In this document: positions 22,104-24,606 of the stretch, piece by piece | Layout of the letters: every line of letters starts with the position of its first letter | How positions within the stretch are numbered: position 1 is the first letter of the stretch | Assembly (NCBI GenBank): GCA_043783155.1 | Contig: JAYVZS010000054.1 | Span: forward strand, 411 to 64,410 | Source of the DNA: Bacteroidota bacterium | GTDB lineage: Bacteria; Bacteroidota; Bacteroidia; AKYH767-A; 2013-40CM-41-45 | Direction of reading: 5' to 3' | DNA length: 64,000 nucleotides | Position numbers and translations under genes: made by a program | Notes under the pieces: generated by a model | Told to the model about the DNA's origin: nothing | The model's database searches: none | The model's input: the letters and a program-made list of their open reading frames with translations, nothing else

Positions 22104-22577
22104 ATGCCTGATAAAAAAGAATTTATGCGGGAGGCCATTCGCCTCAGTTTTGATACCATGCGTAGCAACACAGGAGGTCCTTTTGGATGTGTGGTTGTGA
22201 AAGATGGAAAAGTTATCGCGCGTGGTTTTAATAAAGTTGTTTCCACCAACGATCCGACAGCGCATGCTGAAGTGGTCGCAATTCGTGAAGCGTGTAAAAC
22301 ATTAAACGATTTTCAACTGACAGGTTGCGAAATTTATACAAGCTGTGAGCCCTGCCCGATGTGCCTTTCAGCTATTTACTGGGCGCGGCCGGATAAAGTG
22401 TATTACGCCAATACAAAGGAAGACGCAGCAAATATTAATTTCGATGACGCTTTTATCTACAAAGAAATTCAGGCGGAGTTATGCGACCGGAAAATCGCTG
22501 TCGAACAGTTGCTCCATGATGAAGCCATTGAAGCATTTCATGAATGGAAAAAAAAAACGGATAAGATTTCGTATTGA
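22104..22577 (+). CDS. CDA-fold nucleoside deaminase, guanine deaminase GuaD-like (or TadA-like)
   Basis: Zinc motifs HAEVVAIREA and SCEPCPMCLSAIYWAR. GGPFGCVVVKDG, TNDPTAHAEV and FDDAFIYKEI closely resemble my memory of B. subtilis GuaD. Confidence 0.6.
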   Translation: MPDKKEFMREAIRLSFDTMRSNTGGPFGCVVVKDGKVIARGFNKVVSTNDPTAHAEVVAIREACKTLNDFQLTGCEIYTSCEPCPMCLSAIYWARPDKVYYANTKEDAANINFDDAFIYKEIQAELCDRKIAVEQLLHDEAIEAFHEWKKKTDKISY

Positions 22578-22673
22578 TTGAATGTGTTGAAGATGTGATT
22601 TTAAAAATTTTGAGACTGATTTTTTTTTGTTACACAATAATTTAAGTAAAGATATTTTCCTCTTTTTATTCTT

Positions 22674-22704
22674 AATTGGATATCACAATTTGTGATATCC
22701 AATT
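22674..22704. promoter_or_regulatory. perfect 31-bp palindrome (15-bp arms around a single central T), candidate operator
   Basis: AATTGGATATCACAA-T-TTGTGATATCCAATT is a perfect inverted repeat. It sits 30 bp upstream of the reconstructed ORF6N start (22734) and ~100 bp downstream of the deaminase stop. Confidence 0.6.
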
Positions 22705-22733
22705 TTATCTTCTAACCTTTTAAAATTTTCAAA

Positions 22734-23276
22734 ATGAGAAAATCCATTTTATTATCAGACGAAAAGGTAATCAATAAAATTTACCTGATCAGGGTAAAAA
22801 AGTCATGTTGGACCGTGATTTAGCTGAACTTTACGGAGTTGAAACCAGGGTTTTGAATCAGGCAGTCAAACGAAATGAAAAAAAGATTTCCTGACGATTT
22901 TATGTTCCGGTTAACTGAAAAAGAATTGTCCATTTGGAAATCACAAAATGTGACATCCGACAAAGAAAAAATCGGTTTGAGAAAATTGCCTTTGGCTTTT
23001 AGCGAACAGGGCGTCGCTATGTTGTCCAGTGTCTTGAACAGCAGAAACGCGATTGATGTAAACATTCAGATTATTCGGATATTCACTCGATTGCGTGAAG
23101 TGTTTCTGACACACAAAGATGTTTTATTGAAACTGGAAAAACTGGAAAAGAAAATATTTAAACAAAATGATCATTTGAGAAAACAGGAAGAAGAAATTCA
23201 AATGGTTTTTAATGTATTGAAAAAATTACTTAGCCCGCCTCAGCAACCAAGGAAACGTATCGGTTTTAAAAATTAA
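22734..23276 (+). pseudogene. ORF6N (KilA-C-related) domain protein disrupted by two compensating homopolymer indels
   Basis: Frame 0 gives [23 protein letters not shown] then a stop. Frame -1 from 22805 gives [27 protein letters not shown], and frame 0 resumes at 22875 with (K)[36 protein letters not shown]... The frame changes sit at an A6 tract (22796-22801) and an A7 tract (22878-22884). Confidence 0.6.
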
Positions 23277-23301
23277 AGTGAGTTTTTGGTCGTCAAATTT
23301 T

Positions 23302-24606
23302 CTATTTACTGAAAAGCAGTCTCACATCCTTCACTGAATCCGTATTCGCAATGTTGTATTGGAATGAAGCCGTTGAAGAATTGTAAACATGAACGGTGTT
23401 TCCTGAACAAGCGAAAATTTCCTGGTCAAGGTCATCATACGTCAAAGAATAAACCGGAAAACCTGTAACGAACGGAGTAAGGCCATTGAGCGTATAATTG
23501 TACAGATAAATTCCGCCGGAATGAGCAACAAAGTAATGCGTGTTGTCAACCTGAACTACATTGTTAAGCAAACCGGTCGGTACCGTGTGCAACTGGATGA
23601 TTCCGTTCCCGGTTTCATTGTAGATTTCAATTTTGCCTTGCCCTGAAACCGTATCATTTCCGAAGAGAAGCAGGTGACCGTTATCAAGCGTGAACATGTT
23701 TTTCAGATCCATATCGATTACCCTTTCTTGTTTTGCAGCACCGGAAACAAGATAAAAACTTCCTATCCTGGTTTCATGAACAGTTGGATAATACAATTCA
23801 CCGAAAAAATACTGATCGTTTTTTAAAATAGCATCCGGTATAAAGTATCCTGATTGCTGAACCTCATATTTCTGTGTACCTGTTTTGTTGTATCCTTTGA
23901 TATTTCCATTGTACCAGGAAACGTAAACCACATCATTCTCCAGGAATAAATTCATAAAAGTAGGAATAGAAGACGCAGCAGATTGTTTGGAAAAAAGCAA
24001 TGCATTGCTGGTGAGATCATATCCATTAAAATTTCCAGTCAGCTTTCCGATAGTAAACAATGTATTGCCCAAAGAATAGATCGCTGATGCCGCATAATCG
24101 CCGGGTATACTAATACTGATAGATGGTTGATGCAATGAATCTATTTTCAAAACCTGGCAGGAGAAATTATTCGCTGAAGAAATAAGATAAATGGCTTTTC
24201 TGACTTTTTGCAGCTCATTGATATGAATTAAAGTATAAGCATTTGTCTCGTGATGTCCGTTTGAAGCGGTTACCGCGATATAATAATTTCCTGATACAAG
24301 GTTCACGTTGTCAATCACGTACTGTGCGTTGATCACGGTATTATTTCCTGAAAAAGTTGACGAAACTCCGTGTCCTGCTGGTATATAGTTTGAATTGAGT
24401 AGCCGGATTCCTACAGCTGTAATTTGTTTTGAATCGCTGATATGAATTTGAATGGGAAAAGTATCGCCGACGGCAAAGGATGCACCTGATGATGGTTTCA
24501 GAATAGTAACGATCGGACTGCCAAAATCTTCATTCTTCTTGCAGGAAGAAAACAGAACTTGAATAAGAAACACGAATGCGGCTAAATTGAAAATTCTTAC
24601 AGACAT
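23302..24606 (-). CDS. hypothetical lipoprotein (signal peptide + lipobox Cys; probable Ig-like N-domain and beta-propeller-like repeats)
   Basis: N-terminal LFSSCKKNE is a SPII lipobox. The sequence is rich in N, G, Y, S and T. Nothing beyond that was recognised. Confidence 0.35.
   Translation of the reverse strand: MSVRIFNLAAFVFLIQVLFSSCKKNEDFGSPIVTILKPSSGASFAVGDTFPIQIHISDSKQITAVGIRLLNSNYIPAGHGVSSTFSGNNTVINAQYVIDNVNLVSGNYYIAVTASNGHHETNAYTLIHINELQKVRKAIYLISSANNFSCQVLKIDSLHQPSISISIPGDYAASAIYSLGNTLFTIGKLTGNFNGYDLTSNALLFSKQSAASSIPTFMNLFLENDVVYVSWYNGNIKGYNKTGTQKYEVQQSGYFIPDAILKNDQYFFGELYYPTVHETRIGSFYLVSGAAKQERVIDMDLKNMFTLDNGHLLLFGNDTVSGQGKIEIYNETGNGIIQLHTVPTGLLNNVVQVDNTHYFVAHSGGIYLYNYTLNGLTPFVTGFPVYSLTYDDLDQEIFACSGNTVHVYNSSTASFQYNIANTDSVKDVRLLFSK

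What the first reader, a model, noticed from the sequence alone, without database searches (positions are those of the whole stretch)
22674..23276. ORF6N-domain gene broken by two compensating ±1 indels in A6/A7 tracts, behind a perfect 31-bp palindrome
Read across three frames, the region encodes a complete, well-conserved ORF6N/KilA-C-type protein ([23 protein letters not shown] | [27 protein letters not shown] | [21 protein letters not shown]...). Continuity needs one extra A in the A6 run at 22796-22801 and one fewer A in the A7 run at 22878-22884. As written, frame 0 hits TAG at 22818-22820. The middle segment in the -1 frame is 75 nt. Because the two slips cancel, every conserved block is preserved. 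Three readings are possible: homopolymer sequencing errors, a recently inactivated gene, or slipped-strand phase-variable expression (A-tract contingency loci are known in Bacteroidota). ORF6N proteins are typically antirepressor-like and phage/ICE-associated, and here one sits alone in core DNA. Directly upstream, at 22674-22704, AATTGGATATCACAA-T-TTGTGATATCCAATT is a flawless 15/1/15 palindrome. It lies 30 bp before the reconstructed start and looks like a dimeric-repressor operator.
Basis: partly seen in the sequence, partly recalled or inferred. Interest (0 to 1): 0.7.

Follow-up and report, generated by a model that had tools for sequence, protein, structure and literature searches.

The report
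Broken ORF6N gene with family-wide palindrome
A small, horizontally acquired DNA-binding gene of a candidate anti-phage family has been knocked out by two real one-base slips in runs of A, which is ordinary; the perfect palindrome in front of it is a conserved element that most relatives also carry inside their coding sequence, kept symmetrical by compensating base changes.

Summary
A6 (22796-22801), A7 (22878-22884) and the 15/1/15 palindrome (22674-22704) are as described. Repairing both tracts gives a 180-aa protein that matches Pfam ORF6N end to end (E 1.8e-33) and PADLOC candidate defence family PDC-S05 (E 4.6e-59).

The frameshifts are real, not assembly errors. Six contigs from six accessions and three assembly sources are 100% identical to the window and all carry A6/A7. 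No repaired allele exists among about 15 billion public proteins. The "compensation" is only arithmetic: a TAG at 22821-22823 lies between the tracts, so each indel is disruptive on its own. None of 80 homologues is shifted at these sites, and there is no stimulatory RNA structure.

Syntenic relatives lack the gene.

The more interesting result concerns the palindrome. Its sequence recurs upstream of many homologues, typically centred about -40 to -60 from the start. It also recurs inside the coding sequence (codons 67-77) of most homologues across phyla. There synonymous sites are frozen and 11 of 14 arm pairs show compensatory changes. Its function is untested; an operator for the gene's own product is my best guess.

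The parts
22578..23301 (.). Lineage-specific inserted segment: the whole interval between the deaminase stop and the stop of the convergent 434-aa gene
   Evidence: Relatives with DnaB >=90% identical keep the synteny but have only about 100-120 nt here (L088, L089-L091) or a different insert (L087).
22674..22704 (.). Perfect 15/1/15 palindrome AATTGGATATCACAA-T-TTGTGATATCCAATT, centred 45 nt before the ATG; upstream copy of the family element
   Evidence: The same 31-mer (any central base) occurs at 34 sites in JGI metagenomes, 27 of them in or next to ORF6N genes. Related palindromes lie upstream of homologues. It also fits a hairpin-plus-T-run terminator pattern.
22734..22802 (+). Gene segment 1, codons 1-23 ([23 protein letters not shown]) in frame 0; as written this frame runs on to TAG 22821-22823
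22796..22801 (+). A6 tract, one A short of the inferred ancestral GTA AAA AAA GTC; as written it forms GTA AAA AAG, i.e. an A_AAA_AAG heptamer in phase
   Evidence: Intact homologues read GGN AAA AAA GTN (K-K-V) with no gap. All six independent contigs have A6.
22802..22882 (+). Gene segment 2, codons 24-50 ([27 protein letters not shown]) in the -1 frame; the ORF as written is 22805-22894
22878..22884 (+). A7 tract, one A longer than the inferred ancestral GAA AAA AGA
   Evidence: Homologues read GAA AAA CGT/AGA TTT (E-K-R-F). All six contigs have A7.
22875..23276 (+). Gene segment 3 back in frame 0: the 133-aa ORF (MKKRFPDDF...GFKN), holding the second half of the ORF6N domain plus a C-terminal helical region
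   Evidence: Pfam ORF6N model positions 36-86 only. Identical to P0024, found on 8 contigs. Long helices 104-166 in the model.
22932..22962 (.). Intragenic, degenerate copy of the palindrome (ATTTGGAAATCACAA-A-ATGTGACATCCGACA), encoding I-W-K-S-Q-N-V-T-S-D
   Evidence: The half-site matches with 2 mismatches. 22665-22702 and 22934-22971 are 82% complementary over 38 nt. The position is homologous to the covarying palindrome of the family.

Best explanation
The locus is a recently inactivated copy (pseudogene) of a roughly 180-aa ORF6N / PADLOC PDC-S05 family gene. The gene was inserted on its own, with its upstream palindrome, between two convergent housekeeping genes of a Bacteroidota-like genome.

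Two independent replication-slippage events occurred in lysine-codon A-runs: A7 to A6 at 22796-22801 and A6 to A7 at 22878-22884. Each breaks the reading frame. Because a TAG lies between them, they do not rescue one another, and no full-length protein is made by standard decoding.

The 31-bp palindrome is not a private feature of this locus. It is the upstream copy of a family-wide, roughly 27-31-bp palindromic element (TTGGA-NN-TCACAA-N-TTGTGA-NN-TCCAA and variants) that travels with these genes. Most members carry it inside the coding sequence at codons 67-77, where it encodes a loop modelled with low confidence. A sizeable minority also carry it centred about 40-60 nt upstream of the start codon.

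Inference, not shown: the element is a cis site recognised by the gene's own winged-helix-like, coiled-coil product, which would give autoregulation from a promoter-proximal operator plus an intragenic site.
For: Real and fixed frameshifts:
- Six contigs from six accessions and three assembly sources (ENA scaffolds, ENA k141 contigs, Logan) are 100% identical to the window over 1.2-12.4 kb. All carry A6/A7.
- The window otherwise has intact ORFs of up to 1341 aa despite 267 homopolymer tracts, and an in-frame A10 in the neighbouring deaminase gene.

Family and reconstruction:
- Pfam ORF6N 1-86/86, E 1.8e-33.
- PDC-S05 model PDLC04856 matched over 1-176/177, E 4.6e-59.
- Gap-free codon alignment to intact homologues at both sites.

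Independent lesions: the stop at 22821-22823 lies between the tracts.

No recoding signature:
- 0 of 80 homologues are shifted at these sites.
- No structure follows the first site (z 0.30).

No ON allele:
- The best full-length hit in 5.8 billion clusters is 76% identical.
- Exact look-ups of three repaired products are absent from about 15 billion proteins.

Recent inactivation:
- In a leave-one-out family HMM, the repaired protein scores 255.4 bits, rank 30 of 81. The median of intact members is 250.7.

Insertion: the gene is absent from syntenic loci L087-L091.

Decay is common in the family: L103 has a frameshift, L104 an early stop, and L137 is truncated after residue 38.

Palindrome as a family element:
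- TCACA-N3-TGTGA lies at nt ~207 in 59 of 90 homologues and upstream in 13 of 90. Background is 0.018 per 156 nt.
- Synonymous sites are frozen: V73 is GTG in 98%, Q71 is CAA in 92%.
- On 66 distinct sites, 89.1% of cells are paired against 72.8% in shuffles. 11 of 14 pairs change on both sides. Slid controls give <=42%.
- Examples are S70 third base against codon-73 second base (WC 70/71) and W/L68 second base against S75 third base (WC 68/71).
- The exact 31-mer occurs at 34 sites in JGI metagenomes: 15 at +213 inside ORF6N genes, 11 upstream, 1 downstream.
- Only 4 hits occur in 2.9 M viral contigs, 3 of them inside ORF6N-like genes.

DNA-binding protein:
- Residues 72-76, encoded by the palindrome centre, have pLDDT < 50.
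Against: Apart from the two indels the gene and its upstream palindrome are flawless. Continued selection would also predict this.

The first site is a textbook A_AAA_AAG -1 slippery heptamer in the right phase. This follows automatically from deleting one A of a Lys-Lys A7 run, but it means some -1 product is likely.

All contigs are one clonal sequence. Conservation of the frameshifts across diverged strains therefore cannot be assessed, and minority tract-length variants within reads are invisible in consensus assemblies.

For the operator inference:
- Symmetry is kept at nearly every arm position, which is more than a protein would be expected to contact.
- Within one locus the upstream and internal copies can be different variants (L027, L032, L065).
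- Own-locus pairs are barely more alike than random pairs (23.8 vs 22.3 of 31, p about 0.05).
- No binding has been shown for any member.
Confidence: 0.72

Rival explanations
1. Assembly or sequencing artefact: the true genome has A7 and A6 and the gene is intact.
For: Both lesions lie in homopolymers and sum to zero. This is the classic look of homopolymer miscalls.
Against: Six contigs from six accessions and three assembly sources all give A6/A7 with 100% identity. No intact version exists in about 15 billion proteins. The rest of the window has long intact ORFs and an in-frame A10.
Confidence: 0.03
2. Phase-variable contingency gene: slipped-strand mispairing at the A tracts switches the gene ON and OFF in the population.
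For: Homopolymer tracts sit in the 5' part of a candidate defence gene. Everything else is intact.
Against: Two tracts would have to switch together. The tracts are short (6-7 nt). Every assembly shows the same OFF/OFF state, and neither ON nor half-repaired products are recorded anywhere. Homologues mostly have shorter, interrupted A-runs at these codons: the maximum run is 3 nt or less in 45 of 80 at site 1. The tracts are therefore not a maintained family feature.
Confidence: 0.07
3. Programmed recoding: ribosomes shift -1 on A_AAA_AAG (22796-22802) and +1 in the A7 run (AAA A|AGA), or RNA polymerase slips at both tracts. This would give a little full-length protein as a regulated output.
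For: The first site is a canonical -1 heptamer in phase. The -1 frame is open and conserved up to the second tract. tRNA-Lys can re-pair +1 within A7 (established knowledge of dnaX and IS3-type frameshifting).
Against: The phase of the heptamer is an automatic by-product of a 1-nt deletion in Lys-Lys. No downstream stimulatory structure exists (z 0.30). No known +1 stimulator (a stop or rare codon in the A site) is present. None of 80 homologues uses a shift at either site. Two low-efficiency events would multiply to a negligible yield.
Confidence: 0.04
4. The upstream palindrome is simply the intrinsic terminator of the deaminase gene, or more generally an RNA hairpin, and not a protein-binding operator.
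For: It matches the terminator pattern: 14-bp stem, 3-nt loop, then TTTTATCTTCT, at -17.1 kcal/mol. Arm covariation across the family is what a base-paired stem predicts.
Against: The element belongs to the ORF6N gene, not the deaminase. Syntenic relatives without ORF6N lack it. It recurs at a narrow distance upstream of ORF6N starts in unrelated genomes, where no T-run follows it. The same sequence sits in mid-gene, where a sense terminator would be self-defeating. G.U-type mismatches are not favoured on the sense strand (18 vs 29).
Confidence: 0.2
5. The palindrome is a recombination or mobility site, for example a hairpin or cruciform used to insert, duplicate or shuffle these small genes.
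For: The gene is a single-gene insertion with no recombinase nearby. The family forms tandem arrays of up to 8 copies and has head-to-head truncated copies (L060, L051). Isolated palindromes lie just downstream of genes or beside other genes (L046, L068, L015, L132). Two homologues sit directly after paired tyrosine recombinase genes (L092, L095).
Against: Arms of 12-15 bp with a 1-3-bp spacer do not fit known tyrosine-recombinase cores, attC or dif sites (established knowledge). Fragment boundaries do not consistently fall at the palindrome. No flanking target duplications or terminal repeats were found in the window.
Confidence: 0.1

Closest known systems
Pfam PF10543 ORF6N domain proteins (stand-alone, about 180-190 aa; labelled 'anti-repressor' in PHROGs, phrog_4792)
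   Same: Full-length domain match at 115 bits. Same length and architecture as thousands of homologues, up to 76% identical.
   Different: This copy is split into three frames by two 1-nt indels and cannot give the full protein by normal decoding.
PADLOC candidate defence system PDC-S05
   Same: End-to-end match to model PDLC04856 (E 4.6e-59). One PDC-S05 representative was reported to lower plating of T7 and T5 about 1000-fold (bioRxiv 10.1101/2024.09.26.614923).
   Different: The tested representative carried a Virulence_RhuM domain, so it may belong to another PDC-S05 sub-model. Defence by the 180-aa type is untested, and this copy is inactivated.
Homopolymer-frameshift pseudogenes (slippage at poly-A tracts during gene decay)
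   Same: Both lesions are +/-1 changes in A6-A7 runs encoding Lys-Lys. There is no other damage, as expected if slippage-prone tracts are hit first.
   Different: Nothing unusual. The zero net length change is coincidental because a stop separates the two sites.
-1 programmed frameshifting on A_AAA_AAG (E. coli dnaX, IS3-family transposases); from established knowledge
   Same: Identical heptamer in the correct phase at 22796-22802.
   Different: There is no stimulatory hairpin and no conservation in homologues. A second shift of opposite sign would also be needed.
Promoter-proximal plus intragenic operator pairs (e.g. lac O1/O2, gal OE/OI); from established knowledge
   Same: One palindromic copy lies about 45 nt before the start and a related copy about 210 nt into the coding sequence.
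   Different: Here the intragenic copy is the more widespread one. It is conserved across phyla with compensatory arm changes that override codon choice and even amino acids. Binding by any protein is unproven.

Membership tests
Pfam ORF6N (PF10543) | Score above the curated gathering threshold over the whole domain model | tested here: met
   Repaired protein scores 115.1 bits against a cut-off of 27.8, model positions 1-86/86.
Pfam ORF6N (PF10543) | Uninterrupted ORF encoding the domain | tested here: not met
   The domain is spread over three frames. The largest ORF (133 aa) holds only model positions 36-86.
   At E <= 0.1, Pfam returned only ORF6N and one sub-threshold unrelated hit.
PADLOC PDC-S05 candidate defence gene | Full-length HMM match | tested here: met
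   PDLC04856, residues 1-179 against 1-176/177, E 4.6e-59.
PADLOC PDC-S05 candidate defence gene | Confers phage resistance | not testable with these tools
   There is only a report for one RhuM-domain representative. This copy is frameshifted.
Phase-variable contingency locus | Tract-length polymorphism between or within populations, including an ON allele | tested here: not met
   All six contigs are A6/A7. Repaired products are absent from about 15 billion proteins. No other tract length was found in JGI metagenomes. Read-level minority variants were not testable.
Phase-variable contingency locus | Hypermutable repeat maintained in orthologues | tested here: not met
   A-run length at both codon positions varies from 1 to 7 in 80 homologues, mostly 5 or less.
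Programmed -1 ribosomal frameshift | Slippery X_XXY_YYZ heptamer in phase | tested here: met
   A_AAA_AAG at 22796-22802 in frame 0. This is an automatic consequence of the deletion.
Programmed -1 ribosomal frameshift | Downstream stimulatory structure | tested here: not met
   22790-22880 folds no better than shuffles (z 0.30).
Programmed -1 ribosomal frameshift | Frameshift conserved among homologues | tested here: not met
   No homologue among 80 loci is shifted at either site. Three proteins that start at M25 were examined. They are one intact gene with a mis-called start, one frameshift elsewhere, and one early stop.
Intrinsic (rho-independent) terminator | GC-containing hairpin followed by a T-run | tested here: inconclusive
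   The pattern is met in the window. However, the stem is AT-rich (4 GC pairs), and the T-run is absent after the homologous upstream palindromes elsewhere.
Palindromic operator of an autoregulated DNA-binding protein | Conserved inverted repeat at a fixed promoter-proximal position of the regulator's own gene | tested here: met
   Upstream copies are centred at -25 to -108, most at -36 to -67, in unrelated genomes. 18 of 105 genes have one, against 3% of background windows.
Palindromic operator of an autoregulated DNA-binding protein | Binding by the encoded protein and an effect on transcription | not testable with these tools

The most novel reading that the evidence does not exclude
The ORF6N / PDC-S05 family has at least 25,000 clusters at 50% identity. 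It carries a self-contained nucleic-acid element, a roughly 27-31-bp palindrome written into the coding sequence of a surface loop. Compensatory changes keep it symmetrical, overriding synonymous choice and even amino-acid identity. It is often duplicated about 45 nt upstream of the start.

If this is the recognition site of the gene's own product, as duplex, cruciform or hairpin, it would be the first cis element and the first mechanistic handle for this very widespread, uncharacterised candidate defence family. It would also be an unusual case of a portable gene that carries its regulatory site inside its own ORF across phyla. The window's copy preserves a perfect upstream site next to a dead gene.
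Probability: 0.45. Interest if true: 0.65.

Novelty: new member of a known kind. Interest (0 to 1): 0.42.

Why it matters
The frameshift story has little wider importance. It is a clean, well-documented example of a freshly inactivated accessory or defence-type gene. It also shows that 'compensating' homopolymer indels need not mean sequencing error or phase variation.

The palindrome matters more. It gives a testable cis element for a huge, uncharacterised protein family that defence-prediction tools already flag. It also explains why a short stretch of these genes is frozen at synonymous sites across phyla. Annotation pipelines and dN/dS or codon-usage analyses of this family should take the embedded element into account.

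Tried and rejected
- NCBIfam scan: no family.
- PDB sequence search: no hit.
- Foldseek against PDB: nothing significant (E >= 0.12).
- First AF2 model from a shallow alignment was poor (pLDDT 60.8). It was replaced by a deeper alignment.
- Rfam scan of 22500-23400: nothing at E <= 1.
- Phage blastn: two weak partial hits only.
- Half-site regulon search in the window: only the two arms plus the intragenic copy; the other 3-mismatch hits are at the chance level.
- Literature: 11 papers mention ORF6N, none on this element. The motif strings give one irrelevant hit, a spurious 'CRISPR' repeat table.
- Crude homopolymer frameshift scan of the window: too noisy, since gene junctions mimic shifts. 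I relied instead on the map of long intact ORFs.
- Search for target-site duplications or terminal repeats of the insertion: nothing convincing.
- Sense versus antisense G.U bias, to decide between RNA and DNA: 18 vs 29 cells, inconclusive.
- Own-locus versus cross-locus similarity of upstream and internal copies: marginal (p about 0.05).
- Proteins 'starting at M25' as a hint of recurrent site-1 frameshifts: not borne out.
- JGI scan for the gene with any tract length: no hit, so that collection gives no information on variants.
Evidence points to Bacteroidota: T9SS Por_Secre_tail and Porin_10 neighbours, 40% GC, and best homologues.

Full report
**1. What is in the sequence**

- An A6 run at 22796-22801 and an A7 run at 22878-22884.
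- A palindrome with perfectly complementary 15-nt arms (22674-22688 and 22690-22704) around T22689.
- Three short overlapping ORFs: 22734-22823 (frame 0), 22805-22894 (-1 frame) and 22875-23276 (frame 0, 133 aa).

There are small errors. The frame-0 stop is TAG at 22821-22823, not 22818-22820. The conserved -1 segment is 81 nt, not 75.

Adding one A to the first run and removing one from the second gives a 180-aa protein. It matches Pfam ORF6N over the whole model (positions 1-86/86, 115 bits, E 1.8e-33). The 133-aa ORF alone covers only the second half of the model. No other Pfam family scored, so the 'KilA-C' label is not supported.

**2. Are the frameshifts real?**

The 133-aa ORF exists as an identical protein (P0024) on eight public contigs. 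Six were retrieved, from six accessions and three assembly sources (ENA scaffolds, ENA k141 contigs, Logan). All six are 100% identical to the window over 1.2-12.4 kb and all have A6 and A7.

The window as a whole is not error-prone:
- It is tiled by long intact ORFs of up to 1341 aa, despite 267 homopolymer tracts.
- The neighbouring deaminase gene carries an in-frame A10.

An assembly artefact is therefore very unlikely.

**3. What the indels mean**

Codon alignment with 80 homologues shows no gap at either site. Intact genes read ...GGN AAA AAA GTN ATG... (K-K-V-M) and ...GAA AAA CGT/AGA TTT... (E-K-R-F). The ancestral state was therefore GTA AAA AAA GTC (A7) and GAA AAA AGA (A6). One A was lost at the first site and one was gained at the second.

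They do not compensate functionally. After the first site, frame 0 runs into TAG 22821-22823 before the second tract. If only one indel were present the product would still be truncated. They are two independent hits.

*Phase variation.* There is no evidence for it:
- Every assembly is in the same state.
- The best full-length relative among 5.8 billion protein clusters is only 76% identical.
- Exact look-ups of the fully repaired protein and of two half-repaired products find nothing among about 15 billion proteins.
- A JGI metagenome scan allowing any tract length found no copy.

*Programmed recoding.* The first site is an A_AAA_AAG heptamer in phase, but that is the automatic result of deleting one A from Lys-Lys. 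Other evidence is against recoding:
- The 90 nt downstream fold no better than shuffles (z 0.30).
- The second site would need a +1 shift with no known stimulator.
- No homologue is shifted at either position.
- Many family representatives appear to start at Met25. The three I examined are a mis-called start, a different frameshift and an early stop.

*Age of the lesion.* Nothing else has decayed. In a leave-one-out family HMM the repaired protein scores 255.4 bits, rank 30 of 81, above the median of intact members (250.7). The simplest reading is a very recent pseudogene.

**4. Context**

The neighbours are housekeeping genes: UvrD-like helicase, IspE, AccA, a CMP/dCMP-type deaminase, a 434-aa protein, DnaB and a porin.

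Relatives whose DnaB is at least 90% identical keep this order. Between the deaminase and the convergent 434-aa gene they have either about 100-120 nt (L088, L089-L091) or a different inserted gene (L087). The ORF6N gene with its palindrome is thus a lineage-specific single-gene insertion of about 0.6-0.7 kb, with no recombinase nearby.

The family is enormous: 25,552 clusters at 50% identity at E <= 1e-10. It spans many phyla. It often forms tandem arrays, with eight copies in L060.

The family corresponds to PADLOC's candidate single-gene defence system PDC-S05 (E 4.6e-59). One representative, carrying a RhuM domain, was reported to protect E. coli from T7 and T5. PHROGs label relatives 'anti-repressor'. 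Decay of such accessory genes is commonplace. L103, L104 and L137 are further broken members.

**5. The palindrome**

It is the only perfect inverted repeat with 15-nt arms in the window. Half-site searches find nothing else in 64 kb except a 2-mismatch copy inside the gene at 22932-22946. The whole intragenic stretch 22934-22971 is 82% complementary to 22665-22702.

Comparison with homologous loci changed the picture.

*Occurrence:*
- The core TCACA-N3-TGTGA lies at nt ~207 of the coding sequence in 59 of 90 homologous genes.
- It lies within 150 nt upstream of the start in 13 of 90.
- Background is 0.018 per equivalent length.
- The extended consensus is TTGGA-NN-TCACAA-N-TTGTGA-NN-TCCAA, with variants such as CTTGAGGTCACA...TGTGACCTCAAG and ...TTCCA-N3-TGGAA....

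*Frozen synonymous sites:*
- Val73 is GTG in 98% of genes, although other conserved valines prefer GTA or GTT.
- Gln71 is CAA in 92%.
- Ser70 is TCA in 78%.

*Arm covariation:*
- Ser70 third base pairs with codon-73 second base in 70 of 71 genes (A-T 47, G-C 11, C-G 11).
- Codon-68 second base (Trp or Leu) pairs with Ser75 third base in 68 of 71 (T-A 35, G-C 32).
- On 66 distinct sequences, 89.1% of cells pair against 72.8% in shuffles.
- 11 of 14 pairs show double changes.
- The covariation score is 0.428 against 0.164. Slid controls give at most 42% paired and 0.12.

*Protein context.* The AlphaFold model has pLDDT 77.3. Residues 72-76, encoded by the palindrome centre, have pLDDT below 50 and lie in the non-helical stretch 69-86 between helix 62-68 and strand 87-90. 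This fits a segment whose sequence is dictated mainly at the nucleic-acid level.

*Independent replication:*
- The window's exact 31-mer (any central base) occurs at 34 sites in 241 million JGI metagenome records.
- 15 are at +213 inside ORF6N genes and 11 are upstream of one. Six of the upstream sites are at -38 to -52, like the window's -45.
- One is just downstream, and seven have no detectable gene, four of them within about 210 nt of a contig end.
- In 2.9 million viral contigs the extended motif occurs four times, three inside ORF6N-like genes.

**6. What the palindrome does**

Several points argue against a simple operator:
- Symmetry is kept at almost every arm position.
- Upstream and internal copies in one locus can be different variants.
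- Own-locus pairs are only marginally more alike than random pairs.

These features suit a hairpin or cruciform element. The window's copy also fits a terminator pattern, but the T-run is not conserved elsewhere. G.U-type mismatches show no sense-strand preference. A role in recombination or mobility is suggested by arrays, head-to-head fragments (L051) and isolated copies. The geometry fits no known recombinase site, however.

No Rfam family and no paper in the searchable library describes the element.

**7. Verdict**

The finding as given is an ordinary, recently inactivated member of a known family. It is real in the genome, neither an artefact nor a demonstrable switch.

It is the upstream copy of a conserved, covarying element that most relatives carry inside their coding sequence. 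That deserves experimental follow-up.

Noticed in passing
window 22548-22557 and 22620-22628: An A10 run lies in frame at the 3' end of the deaminase gene (EWKKKTDKISY). A T9 run lies in the spacer 63 nt downstream. Both are longer than the broken tracts yet cause no frame problem, which makes them a useful internal control for homopolymer accuracy.
   Followed up: partly
L060 3534-8333; L062; L072; L020: ORF6N-family genes occur as tandem arrays. L060 has eight full or partial copies; the others have three each. Copies are 34-53% identical to the window protein.
   Followed up: partly
L051 5559-6471: Two N-terminally truncated ORF6N copies are joined head to head, overlapping by about 30 nt in the VMLD...LY segment. 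This looks like an inversion or recombination junction, or an assembly chimera.
   Followed up: partly
L092 3898-6561; L095 4686-6558: In two of the closest homologues (70-73% identity), the ORF6N gene directly follows two tandem tyrosine-recombinase genes. It is followed by 0.8-1.4 kb without called genes. This may be a mobile or invertible module.
   Followed up: no
L087 1858-2217 and 2811-4334: One syntenic relative has a 507-aa Por_Secre_tail protein at the same deaminase/434-aa junction that holds ORF6N in the window. It also has a 23S_rRNA_IVP gene before the deaminase. This neighbourhood is an insertion hot spot.
   Followed up: no
L015 9149-9180; L046 6539; L068 6664; L132 375; L027 9514 and 10068; L071 227; L097 4139: Isolated copies of the palindrome lie outside ORF6N genes. 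Some are just after the gene's stop. Others are at the start of, or upstream of, other ORFs (a 369-aa ORF in L015, next to a PIN-like pair in L068). Some read as short W-x-S-Q-I-V-T-S remnants.
   Followed up: partly
L137 964-1140; L103 1400-1500; L104 1300-1412: Other family members are decayed in different ways. L137 is truncated after residue 38 by an unrelated GC-rich repeat-like insert but keeps a perfect upstream palindrome. L103 has an N-terminal frameshift. L104 has a stop at codon 6.
   Followed up: partly
window 23130-23147: An exact 9-nt tandem duplication, AAACTGGAA x2, encodes KLEKLE in the C-terminal helical region of the broken gene.
   Followed up: no
window 22611-22623 and 23312-23324: A 13-nt inverted repeat (12 of 13 complementary) brackets the inserted segment, TGAGACTGATTTT / AAAAGCAGTCTCA. 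The right arm lies inside the 3' end of the 434-aa gene. It is probably chance.
   Followed up: no
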